The notes under the pieces were generated by a model. That model ran no database searches. It was not told where the DNA came from and saw nothing but the letters and a program-made list of their open reading frames with translations. Of a stretch of 64,000 bases of DNA, positions 40,608 through 63,033 are shown in pieces; position 1 is the first letter of the stretch; each line of letters starts with the position of its first letter. The position numbers were made by a program, and so were the translations under genes. The stretch is from an uncultured virus (IMG/VR IMGVR_UViG_3300021405_000011) (taxonomy: Duplodnaviria; Heunggongvirae; Uroviricota; Caudoviricetes): the IMG/VR virus record IMGVR_UViG_3300021405_000011; one strand, written 5' to 3'.

Positions 40608-42532
40608 TCATATGGGAGTCTGGTCAGCCCAATTGGGGCCAAAGGTCACCTCACAAGGTATCACAAAGTTGGGCATCTCTGGGGTAGATATCTCTACTGT
40701 CTCCTGTATCCACTTTCCTACTACCTTGGATTCGTATTCACGGGAGACGTAATAGAGTATTTCATCATGGACTTGTAAAACCGGTAATAGTCTGGGATGG
40801 CTCTCAGCGTTAAGGAGGATATATTTAGTGACGTGGGCTACGGGATTGGAACCGAACATAGCCGCTGCGGTCTTCAAACGGTCAGTTTCATAACCGTAGC
40901 TGGAGAGTACGTATCCCGTCGGTGGCCTCACACACTTTTCACGTTCTACTTGTTTAGTTATGAACATCTGTAGGCCCCGTAACTTAGGAAATCCAGAGAA
41001 GTATTTCATGGTTACTTCGAGAGCACGCTTACGATTCTCCCAACTAGCGGAACCAAACGCACGCCTAGCTAAATTGATACCGGTAAATGTGACAACTTTT
41101 CCCCAGACACTCCAATCCGGGAAGGCTACTCTTACACCCTTGGATATTTCATTCTGGATACGGGAGGAACGGAGTTCAGCGGTAGTAAGGAGAATTAACC
41201 CTTCCATGTAATCGGTAGCATGGGTAACCGTCTTAGCGGCCTCTCTGGCATTCCCCATCTGGATAGCAAACGGGTCCTCTTCCTTAATTCCAATCATATC
41301 CCTCATTGCAGAGTGGAAGTCGGTATTGGGGATATCCTTATACCCAGCTAAGTGAAGGAACACTCTATTCTCGGCATTCTTCAAGTCAGCCCGGTAGAGA
41401 TAGTATCCCTCCGGCGCGACGATGGCTCTCCTAACCTTCTTACCGATACTTTCACCTGTGGCTCTATCCCGGCGGCGCTTAGAGACGTTTTGTAGGTTTG
41501 GATTGCTAGAAGCAAGGCGTCCTGTTGACGTGAAGAAGGACAGGTTACAGTGAATTGAACCTTCACTGTCAACGTATCCTGTCCACTCATTCTTCTCATA
41601 ATCGAAGATACGAGGCGCGAACCATCGGTCAGGGCCTTTACCCAACTCCTTGTAATCCAGGAGACTGGTAAGTTCGGGGTCGTCGGAGTCCTCTGAAGCG
41701 TCTCGAATAGTCTGTTCCTGGGAATTAGCAAGAGGGATACCCTTGGATTTGAAGTGGGCTACTATTTGCTGGGAGCTGTTGGGATTGAAGGGGAAGATGC
41801 CAGTGTTAGTGGAGTCATCCCAGTATTCCCTACATGCTAGTTGGAACTCTCCCCGTAATTTCTCCACATAGGGTACATCCACCAGTACCCCTCGTTCTTT
41901 CATCTTGGAGAGTACTACTTCTACATCACGATGCAAAGGATATAATGAATGGACGCCTAATAGTTTGGCCCTCTTGAGCATGAGGGGGAAGGCTTTGAGG
42001 GGCCAGTAGCAGTCGTTCCCGTTGTACCCGAACACATCACACTCCGGACAGGGACCGGAACAAGTATCCTCGCGGTGGTGTTTCCAGTTAGGGACAGAGA
42101 GGTAGAAGGAACACATGGCATAAAGATTCATCCATCCTCTACCACGTTTTTCACCCTCCTCATCGTCCGTTTTCTTAGTCCCCTTGCAGAGAGACATATT
42201 TGTAAGGAAGTGGTAGAGGATGGTATCCTCCACCCTCTCTATGGGAATATGAATACCCTCTTTTACGGCCACCGGAATATCAGCAGCCACAAGATTATGA
42301 CCGAGCAGATGACAATCAGGATATCTCTGAAGTAGATACTGAAACGGAGCTTTCCCGTCGCCATAGGGGACACTCACTGTGTGGTTGCCGTCGCTGACGC
42401 CTAGGATAGTGGGAGTGTTATCGCGGGTGTGCCACTCTAAAGGTCCCAGGAGAGATAAGGATTAGGTACCAACTCCCTTATCGCCGCTGGGTTCCTTTCG
42501 ACTAGGGGCCACGTTCTCATCACCTCGAACAT
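40608..42532 (-). CDS. polA: Family A DNA polymerase with 3'-5' exonuclease; frameshift near 42440
   Basis: TGRLASSNPNLQN, motif A ADLKNAENR, motif B R..AK...H...Y, motif C VHDE, ExoII GHNL..AD. The N-terminal 31 codons (42437-42532) lie in another frame. Confidence 0.9.
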
Positions 42533-42862
42533 TTACCATCCCTTTAATCGACAATACCTTCGACTAATCCACTTCGCCACACTGAACCAGAATCCCTTGT
42601 AGCACACACAGCAGTCGAACTCCGGATACCACATATCCACTGGTAGTCCGTCCCACTCCATGCACCAGTGGGCATAGGGACCGTTGAGATATTCCCCTCG
42701 CCACTTTTCACAGTCTTCTTGCCACGCTAGAGACCATTTCATATTTCCTCAGAATGTTGAGAGACAGGTTCCAACGATGGCGCTTCCTTTCTGCATCGAA
42801 AGATGCGTCAGCCGGAGTTGCCCAACCCGGACCTGTCTCTCTTAAGTGGGCTAGTCAGTCGT

Positions 42863-43390
42863 TTAATAGCTGAACACCGTAACCAAAAATATCCCCATCA
42901 GAATTACAATCGCAAGTAAGTGCGCCTGCCGTGGGGAACAGTCTCCATAGGAATCTTTTTTGTAGTCCACTGTCTGCCAAGTATCTTTACCCGTTTTGAT
43001 TCTACGGACCATACAGGTTTTACGGTAGGACCATATCCAAAGCGGAAGGAAGACGACTAACTCTATGGCTCCTCCAACTAGATGTACTATCTGGTCTCCG
43101 AGTATCTTCCATACCACAAGGACCATCGTGAGTTTCCCCACCCCAGTTTGGGCGAAGCTATTGGTCTGGACGGTCACGGCGGCTAAGGATGAATTGACTG
43201 CCTCCCCTACTTCCTTTCCCACTCCAGCCCACTCGTGGACATTTTCCCGCAGGTCATGTCCCTGTAATTTATTTAATTGGTCTTGGGTCAGCATACTTTT
43301 GGGAACAGTTACCTTCTCGTCTTGTGGAGTGTCTCCCAGCACTGGGACGGTTAGTAGAAGTCCCAGAAGTCCTATAGTTAAAATTTTCAT
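42863..43390 (-). CDS. Membrane protein with signal peptide
   Basis: N-terminal signal and further hydrophobic helices. Confidence 0.65.
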   Translation of the reverse strand: MKILTIGLLGLLLTVPVLGDTPQDEKVTVPKSMLTQDQLNKLQGHDLRENVHEWAGVGKEVGEAVNSSLAAVTVQTNSFAQTGVGKLTMVLVVWKILGDQIVHLVGGAIELVVFLPLWIWSYRKTCMVRRIKTGKDTWQTVDYKKDSYGDCSPRQAHLLAIVILMGIFLVTVFSY

Positions 43391-43399
43391 ATCCTCTCC

Positions 43400-44335
43400 T
43401 TAATCCAACCCCTTACTCTTCCCCTTCACCTTGGGGACCATCAATCCCAACATCTCCTTATATTGTTGCTCACTTATGTAAGTATCTATGTGATATTGGA
43501 CCTCCCCAGTAAAATCATCCTTAGCAACATCCGCCGCCCGGATGACAGGGAGGGCTGATTTGAGGAATATCTCCAGGGCTAGTTTAGTTGTCAACTTCTT
43601 GGGCTTCTTAACCTTCGGTCCCACTTTGATGGACATCCCACTTACCCTCCTCTCCTCACGTTTCAGTCTAGCATAGCCGGACTCAATTTCATAGTGACCA
43701 CACCATACTGTGGTATTCTCAGAATGCCCCAACCAGGCGTGACTGGCCTTACCACCCATTAATATCAGTACCCTCTCCCCCTGTAGGGAGAAATGTTTTG
43801 CCTTCTCTATAACTTTCAAGCAGACAGGCAATGGGGACGGCTCCCGCGAGATAGCACTTGGATGGAGGCATATAATGGCCACTGTTGGATTCCACTCCCT
43901 TAACTGTCCCCACCATAAGGTGGAGCAACAGGCTTCGGCTCTCTTTCTCACGTCACCAATAGGATAGGCAACGGTTCCATCAGGCTTTTTACCGGGATAA
44001 CAGTGGAGAGTATTCACGAGTCCGATGTCTATCCTATGTATCCCCAACGGCTCCAGCATCCAGGAGAATAAAGTGGCTCCAGCTTTCCCCACGACCGCTG
44101 CTCCAGTTTTGATAAACTTTTCCTCCAGAGTTGGATAGCGTTGTCTACGGCGGTTTAACTCCTGCTCTCCGTCTGATAGTTCCACGATAGGGAAAATAAT
44201 TTCACTGGTTGCCGGAGTTTCGAGTAAAGCGACTATCTTCACCTTATTGAAATCTCCAGACGGCAAGGCGAATCCAGTAGACTTACTGGCCAATGGGCAT
44301 TGGATATCCATACACGCTTGGGGTTGTCCAGACAC
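43400..44335 (-). CDS. Uracil-DNA glycosylase superfamily (family 4 / SPO1 polymerase-associated-like) protein
   Basis: C-x4-CPL, LETPA (for GEAPG), VG.AG, NTL.C.P, HPS. GTG start after GGGAG. Confidence 0.7.
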   Translation of the reverse strand: MSGQPQACMDIQCPLASKSTGFALPSGDFNKVKIVALLETPATSEIIFPIVELSDGEQELNRRRQRYPTLEEKFIKTGAAVVGKAGATLFSWMLEPLGIHRIDIGLVNTLHCYPGKKPDGTVAYPIGDVRKRAEACCSTLWWGQLREWNPTVAIICLHPSAISREPSPLPVCLKVIEKAKHFSLQGERVLILMGGKASHAWLGHSENTTVWCGHYEIESGYARLKREERRVSGMSIKVGPKVKKPKKLTTKLALEIFLKSALPVIRAADVAKDDFTGEVQYHIDTYISEQQYKEMLGLMVPKVKGKSKGLD

Positions 44336-44345
44336 ATACTCTCCC

Positions 44346-44390
44346 AAAAAAGAAAAGGGATGGATAGCGGGGTCATGTTACCCATCCCTT
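44346..44390 (-). terminator. Intrinsic terminator-like hairpin
   Basis: AAGGGAUGGGUA/UAUCCAUCCCUU stem followed by a U-rich tract. Confidence 0.7.
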
Positions 44391-44394
44391 CTCA

Positions 44395-45365
44395 CTACTA
44401 CTCCACCTGCTTGGGGAGGCAGAGTAACTTGCTAGTGGAGGTGCCCGATTGAACTCTTAGCACAGCTTAGGGTATCAACAGCAAGACTGTTCGCTTTCGA
44501 GTTCACACTCTCCACTAGTTCCGGGGGCAGTCCCAGACCCATTGAACCGTCTCCCATGGCCGACGTTCCATGTTGAGGTCTCGAACCTCATGCCCGACTT
44601 AGCGGGCACTCTAACACTATGCTTGTCACCGAAGCGACTGTCCTCTCGGACCTGTGTTTACCGCGAGTGCCCAAACTGTCCCTAGACGGTGAACTCGGTG
44701 GCTCAGTGCCGTCGCTTATGGGTGCCATCTTAACCTGACATAATCATCAGGGTATCCCACATCCGCCTCACCGTACTTCCGCTAGGGTAATCTATAGCCA
44801 CCGCGACCGGACGCTGTGCCAGTCAGAACGTTGACAATCAGCGACTACATACCCCATAGAACGCTCGCCCGTTCTGTCGATGGCTAACTTATTGGGGACT
44901 TGAAGACTATCTCCTTCCGACAAGAGTGTCTTCTTGGTGCGTCCCCAAACTCTTTGGCGGCGAGAGGAGCGACTCGCATTATATCCATTGCCACTGGCTC
45001 ACCCCTCTGTATCGTTAGCCCTGGCTAGTGAGCACCGCCAAACTTTAATAGACTGACAAGGTGGGAATCGGATTACGAATCCGTTGCTGATATCAGCACT
45101 CCCACCCTGTTGAGCCCTCGTTAACGAGTTCTGCACCGTTTCGGCCTCACGACCACAGGGACGGTGCCCGCTCTCTTGTACAAGTTTGGTGGAGGGTCAC
45201 TACGACCGTTTGTGGAGCCCTTCCATGCTGGACGGTTCAGCACTGACAGGATGAGTATCCACCCTGTTGAGATATTTGGCTACAGTGCTAACGTGCTCAC
45301 CACCTTCAATTCCCCTCGCAGTACACACGAGGGAGGTGCTAGGCCACTTGCATTTGTGGGCTAGT
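44395..45365 (-). ncRNA. Array of structured RNA modules / large ncRNA, family unknown
   Basis: No credible ORF. Consecutive stem-closed modules with UUCG and GNRA tetraloops and G-U pairs favouring the minus strand. Confidence 0.7.
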
Positions 45366-45385
45366 GTACCAATAGGTTAGTTTAC

Positions 45386-46129
45386 TTACTCGTTAAGCCA
45401 CAATCTACGATACCCTCTACCTTTATTAGGGTCATACCCCTTGAGCACATTCTCCGCGAAGGCCGGTGAGACGAATCGACGTGTTCTCAGTCTATCACTG
45501 AATTCACCGTCGCCACCTTGGGGCAGTAACAATGCCACACACTCAGTACCGGTACATAGTCCATTGAGGTACTCAGCCACTTGGACGAAGGTACGGGGAA
45601 CGTTAATGGACCTCACCTTATGGTCCTGTTCCTTGGCAAAACGGATTAGGGTCTCTAAGGTACCGTCCCCCAACTCGTTACCATCACTAGGATTCATACT
45701 ATGAGCGATAATGGCACCGGCCTTAGCGGCTTTACCATGATTACGGACAGCAGCGGCGTACTTTTGGTGCTCAGATGGAGTGGGACGGCCACTAGCACCT
45801 ATGGGACCCGGAGCCTTGGATAATGTCTCGGGGTCCACGGCGGGATTGTCGATATACTGTTGCGGGAGGAAGACGGTTAGAGCGTCGTCTCCAGCCGTGT
45901 CTAGGCTGGTATAGGATATTTTCAGCCATTGGGTGAGGGTGTCCTTGCTGCTCTCAACACTCACGCCAGTAATCCTTACTCTGTGGGCTTGGGGCACTGG
46001 AGCCGCCCGCATAGGTGCGGGAGTGTCGGGGAATAGGTCTATTTCACCATTCCCTACCTCGTGTCCCTCCACTTCTATGGGTTCCTCTGGTACCTCACGT
46101 TGCATTTGTGTGGCCTCGTCGTCGAACAT
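45386..46129 (-). CDS. Putative ssDNA-binding protein
   Basis: OB-like beta pattern (HRVRITGV...WLKISY), acidic N-terminus, downstream of Sak4-like ATPase. Confidence 0.45.
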   Translation of the reverse strand: MFDDEATQMQREVPEEPIEVEGHEVGNGEIDLFPDTPAPMRAAPVPQAHRVRITGVSVESSKDTLTQWLKISYTSLDTAGDDALTVFLPQQYIDNPAVDPETLSKAPGPIGASGRPTPSEHQKYAAAVRNHGKAAKAGAIIAHSMNPSDGNELGDGTLETLIRFAKEQDHKVRSINVPRTFVQVAEYLNGLCTGTECVALLLPQGGDGEFSDRLRTRRFVSPAFAENVLKGYDPNKGRGYRRLWLNE

Positions 46130-46177
46130 AGTCACCTTCCATTCTCTCCCTTGAATTTTCACTGCTACGAGTGTGTG

Positions 46178-46206
46178 AATGTACTCTTACCATGGAAACT
46201 TGTCAA
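46178..46206 (-). promoter_or_regulatory. Sigma70-like promoter
   Basis: TTGACA-17 nt-TACATT upstream of the SSB-like gene and RNA array. Confidence 0.65.
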
Positions 46207-46405
46207 GAGTTAATATTCGCACTGGATACGGTCGCGGCGTTGTAACTGGTACTCGCTTGGACGCCAGATTGGGTAAATTTGGCACCGGCTCTCAATAGTG
46301 CTCGTTGTGCTGCTGGCTCCTTTTGTAGGGCCTTCAATTCTTCCAGTGGTCCCCAGTCCATCGTTCTACTCCCTTGCTGCTGTCCACCCGCCCCCAGCAG
46401 CGGGG

Positions 46406-46627
46406 CTAGAAAGGGCGGACGATTATCTCCACGTCCTCTAGTTTATCGACGTGTGTCTCTGGGATAGCCCTTCCTGCCAAAACACTTACTTGGTCGGGAG
46501 TGGACGCCAACACGGACTTCGGTTCTATTAATACTTCTGATTTCGGTGTCTCCCCACGGTCGTTCTGTTCCTTCGTCGGCTTCGGATGGTACAGTACTGC
46601 GTACTCAAATAATCTACCTTTCGCCAT
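46406..46627 (-). CDS. Small protein ending in VRPF; probable -1 frameshift extension to 46203
   Basis: AAGGAGG RBS. Slippery C CCU UUC just before the stop. Confidence 0.7.
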   Translation of the reverse strand: MAKGRLFEYAVLYHPKPTKEQNDRGETPKSEVLIEPKSVLASTPDQVSVLAGRAIPETHVDKLEDVEIIVRPF

Positions 46628-47047
46628 CACTTTCCTCCTTTATCTTCCACTAGATATCCCTTCTCCTTCGCCTTCCTCAACGCATTCTCCTCTCTCAATA
46701 ATGCATAGTCAGCTTGGGGGACGATTATTCGTAGTCTACGGTGGCTGCGAGGTCCCCTAAAGACATAAGACGTGAATCCCGGAGACACTATCTCCACTTT
46801 GGCGCGGTTATGGACAATGGTTATCTCCCTTACGCGGCGACGGACAAGGGTGGACGGCCCCTGCCTCCCTTTTTCCATCGCTTACATCCAAGTGCCTCAC
46901 GATGTTTGGCGGCGTCGAGTGACAAGTGTAAGGGGCAGAATCTCGCGGCACCATACTTACGTTTCTTCCCGCAAGTAGAACAACGTCCGGCTCTAAGTTG
47001 ACGTAGACTCCACGCTTTCTGTCTGGGTACCTTTACTTTGGCGCGTT

Positions 47048-48031
47048 TCATGTCCCAACCTTTGCTGGCTCTCCCTTTTTAATCCTCTCCCAGATAGCTC
47101 TGAGGTCCAGTGGCTCATAGGGACGGATTATACCCTTACCCTCCAACTCCACAGGTAGTTTGTGTCTTGCGAACATGAACCGTTGGAAGGTGACATTCTT
47201 TTTCTGATTCTCGTCATATTCGGTTATGGACTCGAAGTCCTTCCCAGTAAGGAGACAGGCGTTGTTGGGTTTCTTTTTGTTGATGTAATAGATGTAGGAA
47301 TAATCCGACATAATTAAATTGGACATCGCCGGAGGAAGGTCAGGGAAGATAGACTCCTCTTGAGTGATGGCGTTTTCCCTTATCTTGCTTAGGGCCACGA
47401 GGGTAATGTGAATAGGCTTCCTGTTGAGGGTAGTAAATACAGAATCCATCTCCTTCAACGCGGCTACGTGCATCTTCCTGGGGTCCTTGTGCTCGCGGAC
47501 CTCGCCAGTGCCGGAAGTAAAGGTCTCGTTGTCCTTCAGCACCATGTCCTTTCCTTTAGATATGTCATCAATGATTAAGTAAGGTTCCGGTAACTTAGCC
47601 CAGTCAGGCCAGATAGTATCGCAGTAGGCCATTGCTTCGATGAACTCACTGGCGTTCTCGACCTTTACGTACTGAATACCTAAACTCTTAATAGGAAGTA
47701 GTTGGTCCTCACCGCGAGTCAGGATAATACGGGTATTCTCTGGAGAGCTGAATCTAGACGCAGTTACGGTCTTCTTACTATCTATTTCCCCATGGAGCAG
47801 TAATCGCATCCAAGGAGAGAGGATATCCTTGGTACTCTGAGTGCGTTCGGCTAACTTTTTGACGAGGGGAGATTGTCTCGCATTAGCCGTGGATACCTGA
47901 CTGAATATACTTTGGGGAGTGGTTGGCTTAACTGGAGTTACTACTGGAGACGCTGCTCCAGTAAACGGGGCTCTAGCCGCTTCAGCCGTCTTAGGTATCG
48001 GTGAGACTAGTGTTCTCTCTTCCTCGGTCAT
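47048..48031 (-). CDS. AAA_24 / Sak4-like ATPase
   Basis: LLLHGEIDSKKT (degenerate Walker A), YLIIDDIS (Walker B), next to nuclease and SSB-like genes. Confidence 0.65.
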   Translation of the reverse strand: MTEEERTLVSPIPKTAEAARAPFTGAASPVVTPVKPTTPQSIFSQVSTANARQSPLVKKLAERTQSTKDILSPWMRLLLHGEIDSKKTVTASRFSSPENTRIILTRGEDQLLPIKSLGIQYVKVENASEFIEAMAYCDTIWPDWAKLPEPYLIIDDISKGKDMVLKDNETFTSGTGEVREHKDPRKMHVAALKEMDSVFTTLNRKPIHITLVALSKIRENAITQEESIFPDLPPAMSNLIMSDYSYIYYINKKKPNNACLLTGKDFESITEYDENQKKNVTFQRFMFARHKLPVELEGKGIIRPYEPLDLRAIWERIKKGEPAKVGT

Positions 48032-48054
48032 TATCTCTCCCTAAGTGGGACATC

Positions 48055-48083
48055 AATATCCCACGATAATTTCGTACTGTCAA
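48055..48083 (-). promoter_or_regulatory. Sigma70-like promoter
   Basis: TTGACA-17 nt-GATATT with upstream TG. Confidence 0.55.
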
Positions 48084-48086
48084 TGG

Positions 48087-49037
48087 TTATTTGGGCCATT
48101 GTTTGTAGATAGCGGCCAGTCCAGCGTGATACCCAGTTCCAATCCCTTGCTCAAACGAGGACTCTCTTTCTGCCCCCTCCGTACCCTCGTATAACTGTCG
48201 CCCTCTCTCCATACACCACGTATAATCCGTGTATTTAGAGGGAGATAGCATTACTACCTCTGGGTCATTAGGGTCCACTTTTAACCGTTCATACCACTTT
48301 CGCCTGCCTTCAACCATCTCCTCAAGGGATTCCGTTTTGTGTCCCCAACGGGACAGAGGATTCAAATGTTTCTTGCATATTTCTTCCCGGAACTCACAGA
48401 TAGTACGATACTTATTTTCACACTGACCTCCAACGAGATTCCAAGGTATTAGCTTGGACTCCCGCGCCGCTCTAATCTGCTTGCATTTCACTAGTAATGC
48501 GTTCTTGGTGGAATCTAAAGCTACTTGTGAAAAAGTATGGAGACCATCTTCATGGTTCCGTGGCCACACCTCCGGCGGCGACGACTTCACACATGCTCGT
48601 ACCATTACTCTGGGGGCGTCTACGCCGAAACTAATCTCTTCCTCATTCTCCAGAAAAATACCTTGTTGGGCCGCGAGAGCGTACACGGCCACCTGCACGT
48701 CATTGGATATATCGTCCAGCCAACTTTCCTCGTCCTGTCCCTTATATGGCTTTCCCTCCCTTGTTAACTTGGGGGCACCCTTAGTCTTCCACTCCGCGTG
48801 AATCATCCCAATAGCGTCCATGAAATGGCAGTCTCCAATGCCAATGCAATAAAATTTGGGAGCCAGTTTGATATAGAAGGGGGTTTCCGTGGCCACTACC
48901 TTCCACTCCCATTCAGGCAATTCAGGAAGTTTCTCCAACATGAATTCAATTAATCTTGCACTTTCTTCCTTAGCTGGTCCCCCGGTTTCACACGCAACGA
49001 TGGCGTCAGAGACTAGTTGAGTATCAATCTTTATCAT
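48087..49037 (-). CDS. PD-(D/E)XK nuclease (Cas4/AddB-like), circularly permuted
   Basis: ATE, GIGD, EWKT, QVAVY and Cys cluster, then LSPSK..C...GTGYH at the C-terminus. Start chosen by GGAG RBS. Confidence 0.75.
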   Translation of the reverse strand: MIKIDTQLVSDAIVACETGGPAKEESARLIEFMLEKLPELPEWEWKVVATETPFYIKLAPKFYCIGIGDCHFMDAIGMIHAEWKTKGAPKLTREGKPYKGQDEESWLDDISNDVQVAVYALAAQQGIFLENEEEISFGVDAPRVMVRACVKSSPPEVWPRNHEDGLHTFSQVALDSTKNALLVKCKQIRAARESKLIPWNLVGGQCENKYRTICEFREEICKKHLNPLSRWGHKTESLEEMVEGRRKWYERLKVDPNDPEVVMLSPSKYTDYTWCMERGRQLYEGTEGAERESSFEQGIGTGYHAGLAAIYKQWPK

Positions 49038-53031: not shown

Positions 53032-53964
53032 ATGTCCCTTCCACATCAACGATTTCTCATCAACAACGTATGGCCCGCAGAAGAAGTACACCTCATCGGC
53101 GGTCCCTCAGGTTCAGGTAAGACACGATTCATCTTCCAACTCATCCTAAAATGGTCCAGAGGGGAACCTTTCCATAAACATGACTGTCATCCCATGCCCT
53201 TCGCCTACGTCTCCTGTGACCGTTCCCTTGATTCCGTGAAACGCACACTGGATAACCTCAGTATCCCCCTCGATTCCTTCCCCATGTTCTCCGATGTAGA
53301 CGATAAGCTGAACAATTTAGAGTGCATCATCAACAAAATTCGCACTCTCCAGCCTACTACCGAAGTCATCTTCATCGACGGTTTTATATCTCTCCTTCCC
53401 GGCGGCAAAATCAACGACTACGGTGTTGTTTCCAACTGGCTAAAGGACCTCAATCGTCTCTGTAAACGTCTCCACATCACCATCATAGGTATCGTCCATA
53501 CCACCAAGACCAAGGAAGGTGAGGCTTACCTGAATCCACGGGAGCAAATTATCGGCTCCACGGCCTTCGCTGGGTTTGCGGATGCTATTATCGTCCTTCG
53601 CCCCATAGATGTGGAAGAGACCACCACCAAACGCCGCCGTCTCTACATCCTTTCCCGCACCGGAGCCGCAGAACAGTTCGATTATGAATTCAACGATAAG
53701 GGTGAAATCCACCCTGTTGAATCCCTCCCTCCCGACGAGCCAGGTATCAGAGCCCGTTCCTATATTCTCAATCTCCCCCAAGGTTCCGTTTTCACCTATG
53801 AGGAGGTAGTAGGATTGGGTAAAATAAGTCGTGCCCAAACCTTCCGCATCCTTGGTGACCTTCAACGAAAAGGATTCATTGAACGTGTAGGGAAAGGTGA
53901 GTATACAACCCTCAAGGAATCTTCCTCCAGAACCCCGCTCACCCTAACATTTGACGTAAACTAA
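53032..53964 (+). CDS. RepA-type (AAA_25, SF4-like) helicase with C-terminal winged helix
   Basis: GGPSGSGKT, VIFIDG, IVH..K, GS.AF...AD, C-terminal HTH plus wing. Inverted relative to neighbours. Confidence 0.8.
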   Translation: MSLPHQRFLINNVWPAEEVHLIGGPSGSGKTRFIFQLILKWSRGEPFHKHDCHPMPFAYVSCDRSLDSVKRTLDNLSIPLDSFPMFSDVDDKLNNLECIINKIRTLQPTTEVIFIDGFISLLPGGKINDYGVVSNWLKDLNRLCKRLHITIIGIVHTTKTKEGEAYLNPREQIIGSTAFAGFADAIIVLRPIDVEETTTKRRRLYILSRTGAAEQFDYEFNDKGEIHPVESLPPDEPGIRARSYILNLPQGSVFTYEEVVGLGKISRAQTFRILGDLQRKGFIERVGKGEYTTLKESSSRTPLTLTFDVN

Positions 53965-53967
53965 ACC

Positions 53968-54224
53968 TCAGTCTCATCGGAGCCAGCGTATGCACTCCCC
54001 CCATAGGGGGTGGGTGGATGAGACTTTGGAAGAGTACGTGCTTATAAACCCTTACATATGTATAGTTTATAGTCTCTTGAGACCAGTCTCATGTCAGTCT
54101 CATGTGGTCTCATAGGGGGATGAGACTTTGGATGAGACTGTGTGTAAGTACAGTAGAATGTAAGGGATAAGTGGTGTCAGTCTCATCGCCGCCCCCCTCC
54201 ATGGGAGGACCCCCATGAGACTGA
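53968..54224. repeat. Iteron-like GTCTCAT/ATGAGAC cluster; probable replication origin
   Basis: Nine exact heptamers in both orientations plus two partial copies within ~250 bp. Confidence 0.8.
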
Positions 54225-54469
54225 AATAAGTCCTTTGTTTCTGCTATCCCTTTTTCTTGTCCAAAAACTCTCTCAGGGTTTCCTTGGGAATGTTAACCGG
54301 CAGAGAGGATAACTTATCTGCGAGTTTGTGCTTGTACTCCTCCGGCATTCCGGGTTCGACAACTAGTGTCACAGCGTCTTCTCCGTCCCAGAACACCACG
54401 GCAACAGGCTCCAATCCATAGGACGAAACTTCCTCTACAACTTTTTGAGAAAGCCAGTCGATATCCATC

Positions 54470-55865: not shown

Positions 55866-56300
55866 TTAGTGAGGCTCCCCAACCACCAAATCCCTAATCT
55901 CCTCCCTCACTCTCATCAAAATCTTCCCTAGATGATTCTGCCCTATCCCATTCACCGTCCCCCAGAATGCATCCCCCCACCAGTTACCTTCCTGTATCTC
56001 CTCATCTCCAGTATCCAAAAGCATCCCACGTAATGGTTCACTAGAGAACTTTTGGAGTACCAAACTCTCCATTACCCTAAGTTTCTCCTTCTCCCAATCC
56101 GGTCTCATTTTGACTATCCTACCCAACCGTTTAGCCTCGGACGCCTTAATATTCTCGAATCTGATACAGTCATGGATATCCGCACACTTCGCTGCCTGAT
56201 AGGCGTTCTCCACGGATGGATAAGGAACTCCATGCCAGTAGACGTAACAGGACCAGAAGTTGGAGAGGAATCGGAATTTCCCTGTTAGTTCGCCAATCAC
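55866..56300 (-). CDS. NADAR / YbiA family protein
   Basis: FLSNF, SVE.AYQA.K, LL.TG...I.EGN.W.D.FWG, G.N.LG.ILM.VR. Confidence 0.92.
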   Translation of the reverse strand: MIGELTGKFRFLSNFWSCYVYWHGVPYPSVENAYQAAKCADIHDCIRFENIKASEAKRLGRIVKMRPDWEKEKLRVMESLVLQKFSSEPLRGMLLDTGDEEIQEGNWWGDAFWGTVNGIGQNHLGKILMRVREEIRDLVVGEPH

Positions 56301-56987
56301 TTAGTTCTCCCCCTTAGCCGTCACCTTATTCGCCGCGAGTCCGATGACGTAACCCAACTTAACCAAATTGAACAACGTATCCTCCATCCCCATAATCCCC
56401 TTGTTATGCCCCATCAAGGTCCCTGTCACCAATATCTTGAGGAACATATCCCCTTCCCTCTCGTCCTTCACCACTCCCAATCCCACCAATATCTCGGGTA
56501 TGGTCGCGGACATCTTGACCATCCTCGACTCACCAAAGGACACCTTTTCCTTGGAGACCGTACTCCCACTAATTTCACTGAATTTAGCGTACATAGCGGC
56601 CAAACGTTCCCCGGTCAGTCCTGTTACGTCCATTTGTTACCTCCCTTGTCCCCATTTCCACTCCTTCGTACATCCCTCCCGTTCCAACTTAAACCTCTCG
56701 TCGATATCCTCCCGGTGCCACAAACTAATTGCCTGTCTATTTCCACACCTGGGGCATCCCTTGCTCACGTTCTTCCTGTCCTGAAACTCTCCACAATTTG
56801 GACAGTGGATATCAAAGGGCATGGTCACGCCCCATATCCCGGCGGTATCTCCACTGGATGATGGCACGCACACACACAGTTTAGGGAGAAACACTGTCTA
56901 TGTTTCCCAAACAAACAAGGCCGGGAGAATCCATCTACCATTTTTCTCCCTTTACTGGCCCCACGTTTACGACCTCTCCCTGTCCCT

Positions 56988-57476
56988 TTAGGCGTCACGT
57001 CGATGTAACCCAGTCCGTATATTAGCCGTCTGGTGGACAAACCTCTTCACCATCCCACCGCTATGGGAGTTATCCGGTTTAGTGGCCTTCCCCCTCCACG
57101 TCCCGAGTCGTGAGCACTTCGGTTGCGCCTTCAACTTATACTCCCCAGGTTCAAACATACTTCCACGGTCAAAGGACACGACTTCCCTACTGACAGCCTC
57201 AGGGACCTTATACCTCACAGCCTCCGCCCCCTTAATCACATAAGCCGTACTGGCCGATATGATTACACTCGTCGCGTGTTCCTGTCTCTTCACCGCCGTC
57301 GCCATGGCACACTCGTTATGGTCCTTCTTTTTACTTACCTTCTCGTCCCTATCCGTCACAGTGACAATTAAATCATCGTCCGCGTCCCTAACACTCGTTA
57401 CTCCAGGGACAAACTTCCGGATGACTCCCAATGCTATCCTCCCGATACCATTCTTTCTCACCTTACGTTTAGACAT
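56988..57476 (-). CDS. Hypothetical basic protein
   Basis: 162 aa, coupled to upstream gene. Confidence 0.55.
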   Translation of the reverse strand: MSKRKVRKNGIGRIALGVIRKFVPGVTSVRDADDDLIVTVTDRDEKVSKKKDHNECAMATAVKRQEHATSVIISASTAYVIKGAEAVRYKVPEAVSREVVSFDRGSMFEPGEYKLKAQPKCSRLGTWRGKATKPDNSHSGGMVKRFVHQTANIRTGLHRRDA

Positions 57477-57976
57477 TATCCATTCTCCTTTAGGTTATCT
57501 TCCTCACCAATGGCCCGTTTTACCTTTTCCTTAAGTAATTCTCCAGCGTCATCAGCCCCAAGGGTAATACTAGTGAACCCTCCCTCCGTCCTTGTAACTG
57601 TCTTAGTATCAGCCAGTTCCAACGCATGAGCCGCCGCTTCCATCTTCCCCAACTCATGCAACGCCTCAATCGGCCCACCCTCCGTAATCCCCACACGTCT
57701 CACCATATCCACCACTATCTGAGCCGCGTCATATCCATTATCGCGGTTATACCAAGTGGCATCGAAACTCACATCACTCGTCAGGTCCACTTTCATCACT
57801 CTACCCTTGAGGTAATCAAAGTATGCTCCCTTCAGTAACAGTTCCCTAGCCTCCTTCTCCTCCATATTATTTGGGTCATACTGGAGGAATCCCATCCCTT
57901 GTGGACGTGCAGCATTGTATAAGGCAGCCAACACACTCGCCTTGTCCAATCCCTCTATGTTGACCATCATTTTCAT
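57476..57976 (-). CDS. Conserved-looking viral hypothetical protein
   Basis: I.GLDKA.VLAALYN ... YFDYL.GRVMKVDL ... Y.RDNG pattern. Confidence 0.6.
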   Translation of the reverse strand: MKMMVNIEGLDKASVLAALYNAARPQGMGFLQYDPNNMEEKEARELLLKGAYFDYLKGRVMKVDLTSDVSFDATWYNRDNGYDAAQIVVDMVRRVGITEGGPIEALHELGKMEAAAHALELADTKTVTRTEGGFTSITLGADDAGELLKEKVKRAIGEEDNLKENG

Positions 57977-58658
57977 TATTACTCTCCCTTACCCCTACAA
58001 ATATCACAGTTACTAGATGCTGTCAACACTCATTTCGATTCATTCCATCCACGATAACTATCCAGATGACTCTCCTTATCCCTCTGATTAATCGGTCTCA
58101 TCCTCTCAGCAAACGCCCAAGCCTCTTCCGAATGGTCCAATCCCAAGAACACGGTACTCACCGTCCACTTGCCAACCTTAGTAAGCGCCACTCTCCTCTT
58201 ATCCCCATCCTCAAACCATCTCCCCCAAGTCAGCAAATCCTTCTCCACTACTGGCTTGTGGCCCTTCAGAATATATTTATTCATCATTCCCATGGTTTCT
58301 CCCTTTCCTCCATTTAATAGCCGCCAGTCTCAACCCCTCCGCTTGCGGCCCATCAAATTTCTTCCTCTTTACTCCACTCACCCTATTCGATATCTCCAGC
58401 GCACATATCCCGCACACGTCCGCCTTATCCCCGCTACTACTCACTATCGGACTCACCAACTCCTCCGGGTATAGCCAGGTACACACGCTACATGGCGTTA
58501 ACTTTGTGTCAGTCATCTCTTCCTTCTCTCCACCTCGTACCTGTTCTCCTTAAATGCCCTACTAACCGTATCCCTAACGAATACGGCCACACTTCTCTTG
58601 GGTAGCCACTTTGTCAGTGGTATTCTCTTCCTTTGTACCCTCACCACTCTCCACATGT

Positions 58659-58940
58659 TTACCTCTCCCTCGTCACTATCACCAAATTCCCCACTATCCC
58701 ATCCGCTGGCCACCGTCCATATATCTCGGTAGCCTTCCGGTTCAAGGGTAGCCCCTTCAACTTCCCTTCCTCATTTACATAAGCCTGATTATGACCATTC
58801 CCCGGCGGGAGATAAATCAACTCAATATACCCCTCCACTAACCCCTGTAACTCCTTCAAACTAAACTTCTTACCGTCTTTGGGATTCACTAGAGTATCCG
58901 TCCCATCCGGGTAGATTACTCGTGCTATCTGTCTCTTCAT
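58659..58940 (-). CDS. DUF3846-like protein
   Basis: L.ELQ.LV.GYIE ... VNEEGKL.GLP.N..AT ... IVG. Confidence 0.75.
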   Translation of the reverse strand: MKRQIARVIYPDGTDTLVNPKDGKKFSLKELQGLVEGYIELIYLPPGNGHNQAYVNEEGKLKGLPLNRKATEIYGRWPADGIVGNLVIVTRER

Positions 58941-61142
58941 CGTCCTACCTTCCCTCCATTCTTCCCATTTGTCCCCGCGATATATCCCAGCCACCTGTCA
59001 TACTTAAACGCACTGTTCTGACTCTTACAGAAGTCAGCCAGCATCTCTATCGCTGCTGGTGTCAGTGCCTCATGTGCGCGGTTAGGGTGACTAGTTTTGC
59101 GATTGAACTCTCGAATCGCATCCGCCAGAGCTATTAACACTTTCTTTGTCATTCTTTCCTCCCTATGGCCGGACAGCCGATGATGCCCAATGGATACCCA
59201 TAGCTACCAATACTATACTAACTATACCTATTACTACTATAGTAGATATAGCTATAGTTCCATTTAATACTGACAATCTCTGTTCCCGTTCGCTCAACTC
59301 ACCCCTCCATCTCTGGTCACTAACCCAACTTCCCTATCGAATGGCCCTACAACTACAGTACCGATATCCCCATTCCAATGGATATCCACAATACTGGACC
59401 TCAAGTGTTTCTTTACTTCCTTCAACAATGACCTCTCGTCAATCACCCTCACCCGGCCACTGTATTTATCCCTCCCCACCTCAATTAAGTTATAAGATTG
59501 CATCCTTTAGCTCCTCCTTCTTCCGCCAAGTACCGGGACGTTTCAGGCCAATTGTTCCGTCGGCTAACTCATACCGAAGGAATTTCTGACCTAGCCGTGT
59601 CACGACCTCACCCTTTTTAACCTGTTCCACGGTCCCATCATCGGCAATGACCTCGTACTTTATTCGTGGTCTACTCATATAAGATATTTACCTCTCTTTT
59701 GTCAATACGAATATACAGATGCTCCAAAGTATCCACACGATTCAACTCGTGAACACTCCCTTGGATACCCTCAACCACGAGGATACCCACAGTAGGATTC
59801 ACTTTACCTTCCCCCCTCGTTCTCCCACCTCTCCACGTCCTCATCCTCCTTATCAATAATCGTCAACCGCATCCGCCCCCGCTTCTCCCATCAACTCAAT
59901 GGCCCTCGCAATCCCGCCACCTGAGATAATGGACTCCCCTATCCCCACACCAAAATGGATAAGGACCTTCATCAAAGCGGTCCCAGCCACTACCGCCGCC
60001 GCAAGAACGAAGTACCACAACAAGAAACGGTACAGTTTCTTGTTCATTCTAATGACTTTATACTTTGCCTTGAACTTTGTCCCCATTCTCCCTTTTACCT
60101 CTCTCCCTCTCCACGAGAGTCGAAATGGTGAACACTATCTCTCCCACAACCATAGCAATCACCGTTATCCTCGATACCAGTTCTTCCAGTAGCCCCGGTA
60201 TTCCTTCATTCATGTCCAATAGCCACATGTTTCCCTCCCTTCGGTATGGGCTCCTCTACGTCCCATGTCGGGTACTTTTCAAATAGCCGACTGGCAGGCG
60301 GCAACATAATCGCCACATTCTCATGGTCCGCCCTCAAGAAAGCGTCCGCAAACGCTCTCAGAAAGTGTCCACTCTCATGTGGATGACCATTGACCACGTT
60401 ACGTGCCCAACGGTAGACGACATATTCGTTTACCATTTCACCCTCCTCATAGTGACCGCCAACCCAAAAAAGATAACCGTCACTATCACTAACATATCCA
60501 TCGGCATAGGCTCACCGGCTCCTTGCGATTAGGGCACGTTTGGCCTGCTCCAACTGAGCATTCCTCACGTCTCCAATAGGCACGGTCGTATTCCAAACCA
60601 TACTGCTATCGCGTGTGTCTACCACGTCCAAATACACACTGTCATTCGGACCTACGATAGTTCGTGTCTGAATATGCTGCCGTGTCTCAAAGTGCGACTT
60701 CACTTGTTCCATTTTATTCCTCCTTGTAACCTTTTGTTACATTGATGTACCTATGAATAATCCACATAGGATGCATCCCGACACGGTTAAGATTCACGTC
60801 CCTAACCGTGTGAAGCTGAACCCTAAACTGTCTGGGGAACTGTTACCGTCCTACTCGACCTCTCCACATGCGGCCCAAAATACTTGAGATTAACGTTAGG
60901 AACGTAGTAGACCGTGTGCTGCTCATACCCCATCGAATGTCCCAATTGGGTATCAATACACGTAATGATTAACGTATCCGCTTCCGTCCTCCACGTTGTA
61001 TTGGCCAGAGGGAACAGTATGGGCAACCGTCCTATAATCTCTAGCCTCAAAAATTGCTGTTCCATCCATCTCTCTCCCGAGTTCCACTATCCATGAGTTA
61101 GAACTCCTTAATCTCACTCTCAACGAATGAGATTACAGCGGT

Positions 61143-61550
61143 CTAACGAATGAATCCCAAATCCATCAATAATCCCATCGGCATGTGACCGGCGTTCTTA
61201 GCGATATTGCTATAATTCCCTATCGCCTTCTTAGCTATCGTGGACTCCGATATCCCCGGCACTATCTCATCCGCGAATTTCCACGCTTCTTTCTCCGCTA
61301 CCAACGTGTCATTCGCTGAGGAATGATATCTCCCGCTATTCATCGCCGCCGGGGTCTCTAGTATCCTTCCCACAAAATGCCCCAACTCGTGAGCAAGGAC
61401 AGCGGGAGTATTATCCTCTCCCGACCTCTCCTTATCCCCTTTGGGATTCAGGACAATCTTGTAATCTCCCGTCACATTGTCCCTTTTTGTGAAGCTAGAC
61501 TTAGTGGAATCCTCGTCTATCCACACTTCCAACGTTCCCAATTTCCTCAT
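61143..61550 (-). CDS. HExxH zinc metallopeptidase (ImmA/IrrE-like), copy 1
   Basis: LAHELGH ... E.EAW. Confidence 0.7.
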   Translation of the reverse strand: MRKLGTLEVWIDEDSTKSSFTKRDNVTGDYKIVLNPKGDKERSGEDNTPAVLAHELGHFVGRILETPAAMNSGRYHSSANDTLVAEKEAWKFADEIVPGISESTIAKKAIGNYSNIAKNAGHMPMGLLMDLGFIR

Positions 61551-61634
61551 CCATATTCTCCCTTGAGACTCCCTATTCCTCTAGGCGACTCTCCTTAGAG
61601 ACACTGTTATCCAAACCAATGTCCCTACAGCGGG

Positions 61635-62051
61635 TCACTTAAAATTATCACTCGCGTCTTCCATCAACGCATCCGCTCCCCATTCCTTCATCCCCTCCAG
61701 AAAGTCATTCATGGGTTCGGTATACACCGGCCTCTTGACAATCCCCGGTACAATCTTCTCCGAGAATCCCCACGCCTCTTTCTCCGCAGCATATTGCTGA
61801 CCTAACGTGGTAGTGGGCAATCCACTCCGTTCAGAGATAGGCGTCCTGAACAAATGCGCCACAACATGCCCCAACTCGTGTGCGAATATGTCTTCGGTAT
61901 CCTTCCCTGCACTACCAAACGCCTTGTCAGCGTTAGGCCGCAGATAAATCTCAAATGTGTTACTGTCCGTCTGCCAATGCGTGTAAGAGCTTCCATCTCC
62001 CTTACCCGCATCTTTGTCCAGGAACACCTTGATTAAAGCTATTTGTTCCAT
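61635..62051 (-). CDS. HExxH zinc metallopeptidase (ImmA/IrrE-like), copy 2
   Basis: FAHELGH ... E.EAW. GGGAG RBS before ATG 62051. Confidence 0.7.
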   Translation of the reverse strand: MEQIALIKVFLDKDAGKGDGSSYTHWQTDSNTFEIYLRPNADKAFGSAGKDTEDIFAHELGHVVAHLFRTPISERSGLPTTTLGQQYAAEKEAWGFSEKIVPGIVKRPVYTEPMNDFLEGMKEWGADALMEDASDNFK

Positions 62052-62194
62052 AACTATCTCCCTGAGACATAATGTAAGTCTCATATAGTACACTCGCACT
62101 GAATGTACTATCTGTGAATCACATATATATCCGGTAATACGCCAACGCAGCGTACCCAGCGACTAACCACCAAAACACTCGTTTCAAAATAGAC

Positions 62195-62533
62195 TCAGCA
62201 CGTTCCGTCGTCATGGCAATTCCTCCCTATCCATTCCGTCCCCACATAAGCCGGACTAGGATAATCCCGTTTAGGCGAATCACTAGGATTCACCCAACCA
62301 TGGTTAACCTCATGTGTCACCTGATGAACTGGACACGCCGCTTGCATCCCTACAATCGTTGGATACAATCGTCTCGCCACAAACTCCGCGTAGAACTCCG
62401 GCCACGAGACATTCTCCCTATTAATCTCATCCACTGAACGTCCCTCAGCCTTCATGTTCTCCACAAGGTTATGATGAGCCTTCCCAGCCTCAATCAACGC
62501 CGACTCGATAGCCAGCTTCAAACTAGTTTCCAT
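62195..62533 (-). CDS. Hypothetical protein
   Basis: GGGAG RBS, A.KAHH ... WPEFYA motif. Confidence 0.55.
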   Translation of the reverse strand: METSLKLAIESALIEAGKAHHNLVENMKAEGRSVDEINRENVSWPEFYAEFVARRLYPTIVGMQAACPVHQVTHEVNHGWVNPSDSPKRDYPSPAYVGTEWIGRNCHDDGTC

Positions 62534-63033
62534 ATCTATCTCCCTCTAGACTCCCTACAAAGCGAGTCTCCCCACGTCCCCTCACTTGGACAGCCATACA
62601 GGCGACGGCATGAATAATCGTCCCGTTATTACTAGCGCTCACTGATATGGCCATCCAAGAGAAGGGACGTGTAGCGAATCACTTTAACTGTGAAAGTTAT
62701 CCCTATAGGCGTCGCGGTAATCCACCGCATCGTCCACGTCCTCCACGTCCCCACTCCCATCGTCATCCGGGTCCGGTCTAGCAGAGCGTAATCTCTCAAT
62801 CACTCTCTCCCACCACCCCTTACTTGCTTCCGTATAACTCATAGACCTCAATCCCTTCCGTTCCATACATGAGAATCACGCCTATCACCGATACCGCTAT
62901 TCCTCCCAGTACCAGCAACGCGCTACCCTCCAATATGGAGACTATCCATGTTGGCATATACTCTCCCGAATGTCACCACGAAATATAAGTAACACTCATA
63001 CTACCCACTAATTTCTAATGGGCAGTCTGCGGA

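What the first reader, a model, noticed from the sequence alone, without database searches (positions are those of the whole stretch)
44395..45365. ~1 kb non-coding array of stem-closed, multi-branched RNA modules with AGU(U) linkers
Seen: back-to-back units each closed by a stem: 44399-44426, 44432-44518 (CTAGTGGAG/CTCCACTAG), 44525-44595, 44604-44672 (GGGCACTC/GAGTGCCC), 44680-44787, 44795-44886, 44892-44948 (TTGGGGAC/GTCCCCAA), 44953-45042 (TTTGGCGG/CCGCCAAA), 45056-45110, plus more hairpins to ~45365. On the minus strand the units show C(UUCG)G and GAGA tetraloops and G-U pairs. One four-way cloverleaf has a T-loop-like GGUUCGAGACC arm. Six units begin at or just after AGU/AGUU/AGUUU. Unit sequences differ from each other and none is a canonical tRNA. 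A promoter lies upstream of the preceding gene and a terminator closes the region. Inference: a polycistronic precursor cut into tRNA-sized RNAs (decoys or sponges for host defences) or one large ncRNA.
Basis: partly seen in the sequence, partly recalled or inferred. Interest (0 to 1): 0.85.

Follow-up and report, generated by a model that had tools for sequence, protein, structure and literature searches.

The report
Transcribed 1-kb structured phage non-coding RNA
A soil phage carries a 1-kb gene-free stretch that is transcribed and folds into about a dozen back-to-back stem-closed RNA domains, one of them related to an element inside a relative's tRNA gene cluster; what it does is unknown.

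Summary
Window 44394-45385 (minus strand) is the longest ORF-free stretch of the window. It lies between an SSB-like gene (p258) and a UDG-like gene (p315). A sigma70-like promoter precedes p258 and a strong intrinsic terminator closes the stretch. With pair span limited to 140 nt it folds into 13 domains plus the terminator, separated by 0-8 nt linkers.

Folding beats dinucleotide shuffles (z -4.1, 0 of 102). Four coding controls gave z -0.2 to -1.3, but other ORF-poor parts of the phage score as low or lower. ARAGORN and Rfam find no known family.

Soil metatranscriptome contigs from three studies cover only p258 plus this stretch of an 8-kb span. Two of them bridge the p258 stop codon.

Five relatives carry protein genes at this slot instead. 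One domain (44521-44597) is homologous to an element between two tRNA-Lys genes in a relative's 30-tRNA array. This phage has no tRNA gene.

Best reading: a real, expressed, multi-domain phage ncRNA akin to the non-tRNA passengers of phage tRNA islands. Cutting into small RNAs and a decoy role are not shown. No covariation test was possible, because no homologue of the other domains was found.

The parts
46178..46206 (-). sigma70-like promoter (TTGACA-17-TACATT, 10 of 12) upstream of p258
   Evidence: RNA contigs end at 46161 and 46136.
45386..46162 (-). p258, a conserved OB-fold, SSB-like protein gene co-transcribed with the RNA
   Evidence: 7 homologues, and its C-terminus aligns with theirs. 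The AlphaFold model's best PDB match is PrgE, at E 6e-4, TM 0.62 on the target and 0.37 on the query, rmsd 14.9; RPA and SSB chains follow only at E>0.1. RNA contigs 45005-45969 (X4) and 45211-45471 (X7) bridge its stop codon.
44394..45385 (-). body of the structured non-coding RNA (13 stem-closed domains)
45312..45364 (-). two short 5' hairpins (45339-45364 and 45312-45334)
   Evidence: z -2.5 and -3.7
45188..45304 (-). domain A, 117 nt; holds copy 1 of CUCAACAGGGUGG...UGUCAGU
   Evidence: z -2.0
45117..45184 (-). domain B, 68 nt, with a C(GUGA)G loop
   Evidence: z -2.1
45051..45116 (-). domain C, 66 nt three-way junction; copy 2 of the CUCAACAGGGUGG hairpin
   Evidence: z -5.9, 0 of 200 shuffles as low
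44953..45042 (-). domain D, 90 nt, with a 10-bp closing stem
   Evidence: z -1.4
44892..44948 (-). domain E, 57 nt, with an 8-bp closing stem
   Evidence: z -4.0
44795..44886 (-). domain F, 92 nt, with a 9-bp closing stem
   Evidence: z -1.5
44673..44793 (-). domain G, 121 nt
   Evidence: z -1.2
44604..44672 (-). domain H, 69 nt three-way junction with C(GAGA)G and C(UUCG)G loops
   Evidence: z -3.6
44521..44597 (-). domain I, 77 nt tRNA-like cloverleaf with T-loop-like arms; homologous to an element inside the tRNA array of relative G002
44432..44518 (-). domain J, 87 nt, with a 9-bp closing stem; contigs of two RNA runs stop at 44435/44436
   Evidence: z -3.8
44398..44427 (-). 30-nt hairpin K
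   Evidence: z -3.1
44346..44393 (-). intrinsic terminator: hairpin with a 15-pair main stem followed by a U tract
   Evidence: z -5.2
43400..44347 (-). p315, the UDG-superfamily-like gene downstream; its TTG start lies in the terminator's U tract

Best explanation
The stretch is a genuine, expressed, structured non-coding RNA of a tRNA-less soil phage.

Shown or read directly from the sequence:
- Host RNA polymerase would start at the sigma70-like promoter at 46206-46178, transcribe the SSB-like gene p258 and run on through about 1 kb of RNA.
- That RNA folds locally into about a dozen self-contained, stem-closed, mostly multi-branched domains of 57-121 nt, plus three short hairpins, and ends at a strong intrinsic terminator.
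- The element occupies a variable cargo slot that holds protein genes in relatives.
- It is related to the non-tRNA passenger RNAs of this phage group's tRNA islands.

Inferred: the single-stranded linkers, which often carry AGU(U), are cut by a host endonuclease in the way tRNA-operon spacers are. This would release stable tRNA-sized RNAs that compete with host RNAs for RNA-processing or tRNA-directed enzymes.

My odds: about 0.6 that it is a functional structured RNA at all, and about 0.25 that it works through processing into decoys.
For: Non-coding:
- It is the longest stretch of the window without an open frame of 80 codons or more (945 nt; the next is 521 nt).
- Each of the six frames holds 9-21 stops, of at least two kinds, and GC by codon position is flat.
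- 0 of 14 ORF fragments match PHROGs or Pfam.
- It shows no similarity to the genes that fill the slot in relatives.
- p258 and p315 are complete against their homologues, so it is not an intron in a split gene.

Structure:
- z is -4.07, with 0 of 102 shuffles as low.
- The span-limited fold gives 13 domains plus the terminator at -390.5 kcal/mol.
- There are five closers of 9 bp or more on the minus strand and none on the plus strand.
- The two copies of the CUCAACAGGGUGG hairpin differ at 3 of 9 shared pairs, and all three differences are G-C to G-U changes (read).
- CUCAACA occurs 3 times; 0 of 500 shuffles reach that count.

Expression:
- 7 of the 10 runs that hold the stretch are metatranscriptomes.
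- In three RNA runs from three studies, identical contigs cover 44161-46161 and almost nothing else of 41000-49000. DNA run X9 covers the whole span in patches.
- Two RNA contigs bridge the p258 stop codon.

Kinship:
- Domain I matches G002 27346-27419 at 73% identity (E 1.1e-4, 8e-7 and 6e-5).
- The match includes an identical 19-mer. RNAalifold predicts 16 consensus pairs, and 2 of them are kept through changes on both sides.
- In G002 the element lies between tRNA-Lys(UUU) and tRNA-Lys(CUU).
- G002's array holds other non-tRNA or odd stem-closed units with z of -2.8 to -3.7.
Against: - No homologue of any domain except I was found. The searches were phage GenBank blastn, three relatives' records and motif scans of IMG/VR and GTDB genomes. 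No covariation test was therefore possible.
- Five relatives (L004, L005, L006, G002, G004) have protein genes at the slot instead.
- Low folding energy is not unique to this stretch in the phage.
- Six of the eleven larger domains have z weaker than -2.1.
- The runs were chosen because they hold this stretch. Contigs give no strand, ends or level.
- Processing and any target are pure inference. No domain ends in CCA.
Confidence: 0.45

Rival explanations
1. It acts as one large 'ornate' RNA, comparable to GOLLD or ROOL. These are phage-encoded RNAs of 600-800+ nt, often found near tRNA islands, that assemble into RNA-only cages. Under this reading the RNA works as a whole molecule or an oligomer, not as pieces.
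For: It is about 1 kb, phage-encoded, multi-branched and linked to a tRNA island through domain I. RNA contigs of 511 and 965 nt span several domains. GOLLD and ROOL are described as phage and prophage RNAs often near tRNA islands (passages read in 10.1101/2024.12.08.627333).
Against: No Rfam family, GOLLD and ROOL included, matches even at E<=10. Long-range pairs add only about 17 kcal/mol over the local fold. No closing helix for the whole RNA and no supported pseudoknots were found. Contigs do not prove single molecules.
Confidence: 0.2
2. It is a non-functional remnant, such as decayed tRNA-island or other cargo DNA. It is transcribed only because it lies between a strong promoter and the terminator.
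For: It is absent from all five relatives examined at this slot. Domain I looks like a remodelled derivative of G002's element, which reads as a tRNA reduced to an acceptor stem plus T-arm ending in CCA (my reading). The phage has lost all tRNAs: 0 in the window and in G001, against 30 and 32 in G002 and G004. Half of the domains are not individually significant.
Against: Random decay should erase structure, not leave perfect 8-10 bp closers and z -4.1. No tRNA likeness is left in the other domains. The differences between the paralogous hairpins keep pairing. 1 kb of junk is unusual in a phage whose next longest ORF-free stretch is about 0.5 kb.
Confidence: 0.2
3. It is a cis-acting 3' UTR. 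It would stabilise the p258 mRNA against 3' exonucleases, or tune read-through into the p315-PolA genes.
For: It is co-transcribed with p258. The terminator overlaps the p315 start codon, and no minus-strand promoter-like site lies between the two.
Against: A terminator hairpin alone would do this. Relatives manage the same gene order without the RNA.
Confidence: 0.1
4. It is a DNA-level element, such as a replication origin or packaging site, made of inverted repeats.
For: It lies in the replication module, and the plus strand also folds better than shuffles (z -3.76).
Against: Helices with G-U pairs exist on one strand only. There are no iterons or direct repeats. GC is 52-53% and not AT-rich. 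It is present in RNA libraries. An iteron-like region lies elsewhere, at 53965-54243.
Confidence: 0.05

Closest known systems
GOLLD and ROOL large ornate RNAs of phages and prophages
   Same: Phage-encoded, several hundred to about 1000 nt, many multi-stem junctions, associated with tRNA islands, function unknown (passages read in 10.1101/2024.12.08.627333).
   Different: There is no match to their Rfam models at E<=10. There is no covariation-supported consensus, no evident long-range scaffold or pseudoknots, and the architecture is beads on a string. It sits in a replication module of a phage that has no tRNA.
Non-tRNA stable RNAs co-transcribed inside phage tRNA clusters
   Same: Domain I is homologous to a 74-nt non-tRNA unit lying between two tRNA-Lys genes in G002. 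Relative G004 carries an RNase P RNA inside its array. The domains are of tRNA size and separated by short spacers. From memory, T4 has two such stable RNAs in its tRNA cluster; my search for this in print found nothing.
   Different: Here there is an array of such units with no tRNA at all, so tRNA processing of neighbours cannot release them. None ends in CCA.
tRNA genes and phage tRNA arrays
   Same: Unit size of 57-121 nt, closing stems, short linkers, and a T-loop-like GGUUCGAGACC arm in domain I.
   Different: ARAGORN finds 0 tRNAs. The Rfam tRNA model gives no hit at E<=10. Only at a 70% ARAGORN threshold does domain I give a poor cloverleaf, with an 8-nt anticodon loop and G-G mismatches, and spurious calls appear on both strands at that threshold.

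Membership tests
tRNA | Cloverleaf recognised by ARAGORN or the Rfam tRNA covariance model | tested here: not met
   0 genes in the window. No tRNA hit at E<=10 in 44200-45500. Only sub-threshold ARAGORN calls at ps70.
tRNA | 7-bp acceptor stem followed by a discriminator base and CCA (encoded in the relatives' tRNAs) | tested here: not met
   Closing stems are 8-10 bp and no domain is followed by CCA (read).
GOLLD / ROOL / other Rfam large ncRNAs (OLE, HEARO, raiA and others) | Match to the family covariance model | tested here: not met
   0 matches at gathering score in the window. At E<=10 only the terminator matched, to ctRNA_p42d.
GOLLD / ROOL | Homo-oligomeric cage formation | not testable with these tools
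   This needs native gels or cryo-EM.
Bacterial RNase P RNA | Conserved P4 core regions recognised by the Rfam model | tested here: not met
   No hit in the window. As a positive control, relative G004 gives 131.8 bits at L023 13258-13520.
Group I / group II intron | Interrupts a gene whose exons flank it; matches the intron models | tested here: not met
   The p258 C-terminus and the p315 N-terminus are complete against homologues. There is no Rfam intron hit.
Repeat arrays (CRISPR, ToxI-type antitoxin RNA) | Tandem near-identical repeat units | tested here: not met
   Only 2-copy repeats of 10-18 nt were found.
CsrB/RsmZ-type protein sponge | Excess of GGA motifs in loops | tested here: not met
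   GGA occurs 20 times against 19.8 +/- 3.3 in shuffles, and ANGGA 6 times against 4.9.

The most novel reading that the evidence does not exclude
A new class of phage RNA: an abundantly expressed array of tRNA-sized, tRNA-island-derived 'pseudo-tRNA' domains in a phage that has given up its tRNAs. It would be released as stable small RNAs, or assembled into a particle, and would titrate host tRNA-directed nucleases or RNA-processing enzymes during infection.
Probability: 0.15. Interest if true: 0.85.

Novelty: new variant of a known kind. Interest (0 to 1): 0.58.

Why it matters
Large structured phage RNAs such as GOLLD and ROOL are few, and their function is still unknown. A third, unrelated example is useful for three reasons. 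It is visibly transcribed in soil. It shares ancestry with a tRNA-island element. And it sits in a phage whose relatives carry 30 or more tRNAs, one of them also an RNase P RNA.

It would give a tractable contrast for asking what the non-tRNA passengers of tRNA islands do. It would also show whether phages use RNA, not only protein, as cargo in accessory-gene slots.

The weakness is that it is a singleton, so its structure rests on thermodynamics and two small comparisons.

Tried and rejected
Known RNA families and tRNAs:
- Rfam and ARAGORN gave nothing.

Searches for homologues:
- Phage GenBank blastn found no match.
- The window's own assembly is not held. The nearest record, G001, is the same phage but lacks this part.
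- A p258 scan of IMG/VR found none. With an alignment it found only G002.
- JGI metagenomes gave the same phage plus 4 relatives, none of which has the RNA.
- PolA and p315 scans added G003 and G004. G003 is cut at PolA, and G004 has protein genes in the slot.
- A 17-mer scan of IMG/VR gave 4 loci, of which only G002 is real.
- A 19-mer scan of GTDB genomes gave 5 loci, all chance hits in coding DNA.
- A scan for the CUCAACAGGGUGG...UGUCAGU motif gave 1 chance hit.

Rejected readings:
- A decayed copy of the relatives' slot genes: tblastn found nothing.
- An alternative genetic code: rejected.
- A CsrA-sponge motif: rejected.

Controls that did not work cleanly:
- The GC-regressed 300-nt energy scan did not single out the region, which ranked about 11th-14th of 638 windows. 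That scan is confounded by strand G-richness.

Read-laying results that cannot be used as evidence:
- DNA run X9 showed loose ends at 44484 and 45028. With no 'other letters' listed and bin depths below 1, I read these as short spurious alignments, not a divergent homologue.
- Parts of 41000-49000 without RNA contigs count only as absence of cover.

Other:
- A search for T4 stable RNAs in print found nothing.

Full report
**Context.** The window is most of a roughly 72-kb phage genome from soil.
- Structural genes lie on the plus strand up to about 40.7 kb. Replication and early genes lie on the minus strand.
- The neighbourhood, read on the minus strand, runs: a Sak4-like gene (47048-48031), small ORFs, p258 (45386-46162), the stretch in question, p315 with a weak UDG-superfamily match (43400-44347), p175, and a family A DNA polymerase (40608-42377).
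- p258 has 7 homologues of 46-72% identity and no Pfam or PHROG family.
- Its AlphaFold model has mean pLDDT 67. Its best PDB match is the OB-fold protein PrgE (E 6e-4, TM 0.62 on the target but 0.37 on the query, rmsd 14.9). RPA and SSB chains follow only at E>0.1. I call it SSB-like with low confidence.

**The observation.** 44348-45385 has no ORF above 66 aa.
- It is the longest stretch of the window with no open frame of 80 codons or more: 945 nt, against 521 nt for the next.
- All six frames carry 9-21 stops, of at least two kinds, and GC by codon position is flat at 0.555/0.551/0.504. The neighbouring genes dip to 0.40-0.45 at position 2.
- None of 14 ORF fragments matches PHROGs or Pfam at E<=0.1.
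- With base-pair span limited to 140 nt, the minus strand folds at -390.5 kcal/mol. The fold has two short 5' hairpins, eleven domains of 57-121 nt, a 30-nt hairpin and a terminator hairpin (15-pair main stem) with a U tract. Linkers are 0-8 nt.
- The unconstrained MFE is -407.2 kcal/mol on the minus strand and -373.6 on the plus strand.

**Is it more than chance?**
- The 993-nt body has z -4.07 against dinucleotide shuffles, with 0 of 102 as low. The plus strand has z -3.76, with 0 of 28.
- Four coding controls on the same strand gave -0.60, -0.24, -0.86 and -1.28.
- Perfect closers of 9 bp or more, with at most one G-U, number 5 on the minus strand and 0 on the plus strand. The background mean is 1.18. 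2.1% of 470 windows reach 5, and 0.2% reach the same non-overlapping cover.
- At 7 bp or more the count is ordinary.

Against uniqueness:
- Windows 62401-63393, 53401-54393 and 60201-61193 gave z -6.3, -5.0 and -4.0.
- A 200-nt scan gives the region a mean z of -1.7, against -0.7 +/- 1.5 elsewhere.
- A GC-regressed scan ranks it only about 11th-14th of 638 windows.
- The first two of those strong windows contain the other ORF-free stretches of the phage, and the third a 290-nt gap among small ORFs. Low z therefore tracks non-coding DNA here, but it is not proof of function.
- Taken singly, domains C, E, H, J, hairpin K, one 5' hairpin and the terminator have z between -3.1 and -5.9. Domains A, B, D, F, G and I have z between -1.2 and -2.1. 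The boundaries were chosen after folding.

**Strand and RNA-level signals.**
- G-U pairs make the long closers specific to the minus strand.
- C(UUCG)G, C(GAGA)G and C(GUGA)G loops occur among 20 hairpin loops.
- The 13-mer CUCAACAGGGUGG occurs twice, each time as the 5' strand of a hairpin. Over the 9 shared pairs the two copies differ at 3, always G-C against G-U (read). This fits selection on pairing in the minus-strand RNA.
- CUCAACA occurs 3 times, and 0 of 500 shuffles reach that count.
- AGU or AGUU is enriched at domain starts. AGUU lies at 5 starts, and the motif occurs only 7 times in the stretch (P about 0.002, chosen after looking).
- AGUUU fits the RNase E preference RN|WUU. I recall that consensus from memory and no call tested it.

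**Expression.**
- Ten public runs hold the stretch, and 7 of them are soil metatranscriptomes.
- I laid three RNA runs from three studies and one DNA run on 41000-49000.
- X3 contigs, all identical to the window, cover 44435-45252 and 45361-46161.
- X4 covers 44161-44372, 44436-44585 and 45005-45969, plus one 147-nt piece at 42415-42561.
- X7 covers 45211-45471 and 45933-46136.
- The DNA run X9 covers the whole 8 kb in patches.
- The RNA libraries therefore hold p258 plus the stretch and almost nothing else of the span. Two contigs bridge the p258 stop codon.
- The contigs end at 46161 and 46136, just downstream of a TTGACA-17-TACATT site at 46206-46178.
- Caveats: the runs were found with this very stretch. 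Contigs give neither strand, ends nor level. The shared stop at 44435/44436 (X3 and X4), at the 3' base of domain J, is only a weak hint of an RNA 3' end.

**Relatives.**
- The slot between the p258 and p315 homologues holds protein genes in five relatives:
  - a small ORF plus an AAA ATPase in G002/L007, and in L005, which also has a 173-aa ORF with no Pfam match that I read by eye as HNH-like;
  - a DUF7873 protein in L006;
  - three ORFs in G004;
  - a DHH/DHHA1 protein downstream of p258 in L004.
- None resembles the stretch at DNA or protein level. The RNA is cargo in a variable slot.
- The window plus G001 covers the whole phage and contains no tRNA. That G001's far end overlaps window 1 to about 27.8 kb is inferred from a single 18-nt match and from the shared-word figure.
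- Relatives G002 and G004 carry ARAGORN-called arrays of 30 and 32 tRNAs downstream of PolA.
- G004's array also holds a reduced bacterial class A RNase P RNA (263 nt, 131.8 bits).

**The one homologous domain.**
- Domain I (44521-44597) matches G002 27346-27419 at 73% identity (E 1.1e-4; 8e-7 and 6e-5).
- The 19-mer GUCUGGGACUGCCCCCGGA is identical in both. The arm GAGGUUCGAGACCUC corresponds to GGGGUUCGAGACCCC.
- RNAalifold predicts 16 consensus pairs. Two of them are kept by changes on both sides, and two more by a change on one side.
- In G002 the element lies between tRNA-Lys(UUU) and tRNA-Lys(CUU). It is not called a tRNA by ARAGORN or Rfam.
- As I read, its 5' part looks like a tRNA reduced to an acceptor stem (AAAGUUG/CAACUUU) plus T-arm plus CCA.
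- In our phage that acceptor pairing is broken by an insertion that creates a new hairpin. At a 70% ARAGORN threshold the result is a poor cloverleaf.
- With two sequences, three mutually exclusive closings remain possible: AGUY/GACU, GGGCA/UGCCC and the UCUGGG/CCCGGA hairpin.
- G002's array has other non-tRNA or odd stem-closed units with z of -2.8 to -3.7.

**What it is.**
- The best-supported statement is a real, transcribed, multi-domain structured RNA. It forms the 3' kilobase of the p258 transcription unit and is related to the non-tRNA passengers of this phage group's tRNA islands.
- Whether it acts whole, like GOLLD or ROOL (passages read), or is cut at its linkers into tRNA-sized RNAs cannot be settled with contigs.
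- A decoy function is inference only.
- A neutral remnant remains possible. Perfect long stems, pair-preserving differences between the paralogous hairpins, and the compactness of the genome argue against it.
- An origin-like, iteron-rich region lies elsewhere, at 53965-54243. This weakens a DNA-level reading.

**Novelty.**
- It belongs to no known family in Rfam 15.
- I found no paper describing such an array. The four searches were 'bacteriophage / large structured / noncoding RNA / tRNA', 'GOLLD / ROOL', 'bacteriophage T4 / tRNA / stable RNA / species 1' and 'phage / tRNA array / tRNA-like'. I saw listings only, apart from passages of 10.1101/2024.12.08.627333.
- I file it as a new variant of the kind 'phage large or stable non-tRNA RNAs linked to tRNA islands'. 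It is a member of neither GOLLD nor ROOL.

Noticed in passing
L023 13258-13520 (relative phage G004, complete 70.8-kb record): A reduced bacterial class A RNase P RNA (263 nt, 131.8 bits against a gathering score of 100, full model span) lies inside a 32-tRNA array downstream of PolA. This is a phage-encoded RNase P RNA.
   Followed up: partly
window 62534-63033, minus strand: A second ORF-free stretch of 500 nt has very strong, strand-specific folding: -193 kcal/mol and z -9.8 on the minus strand, -123 kcal/mol and z -3.5 on the plus strand. It has no Rfam match and no match in G002-G004. It may be another structured RNA in the early region.
   Followed up: partly
window 53965-54243: An ORF-free stretch is packed with ATGAGACT(G/T) and its complement, 8 or more copies in both orientations. 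It is iteron- or operator-like, lies between divergent genes, and is a candidate origin or regulatory region.
   Followed up: partly
window 43400-46162 and loci L004-L007, L023: The interval between the SSB-like p258 and the UDG-like p315 is a variable cargo slot. Relatives hold an AAA ATPase, DUF7873, DHH/DHHA1 or other ORFs (one of which I read by eye as HNH-like; it has no Pfam match), where this phage holds the RNA.
   Followed up: partly
L014 4087-4176, 4252-4350, 5663-5788, 7118-7186 (G002 tRNA array): Several stem-closed units inside the array are not called tRNA by ARAGORN or Rfam. z is -2.9, -3.7 and -3.5 for the first, second and fourth unit, and -1.6 for 5663-5788. The first two end in CCA. 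Unit 5325-5429 matches a tRNA-Met of G004.
   Followed up: partly
window 44345-44347: The TTG start of p315, whose N-terminus is conserved with L006, lies inside the U tract of the terminator. No Shine-Dalgarno sequence lies outside the hairpin. Expression of p315 may depend on read-through.
   Followed up: no
window 56000-64000: GC skew on the plus strand is strongly negative (-0.25 to -0.49) over the block of small minus-strand ORFs. z values in 200-nt windows are persistently negative from 58.4 to 63.6 kb.
   Followed up: no
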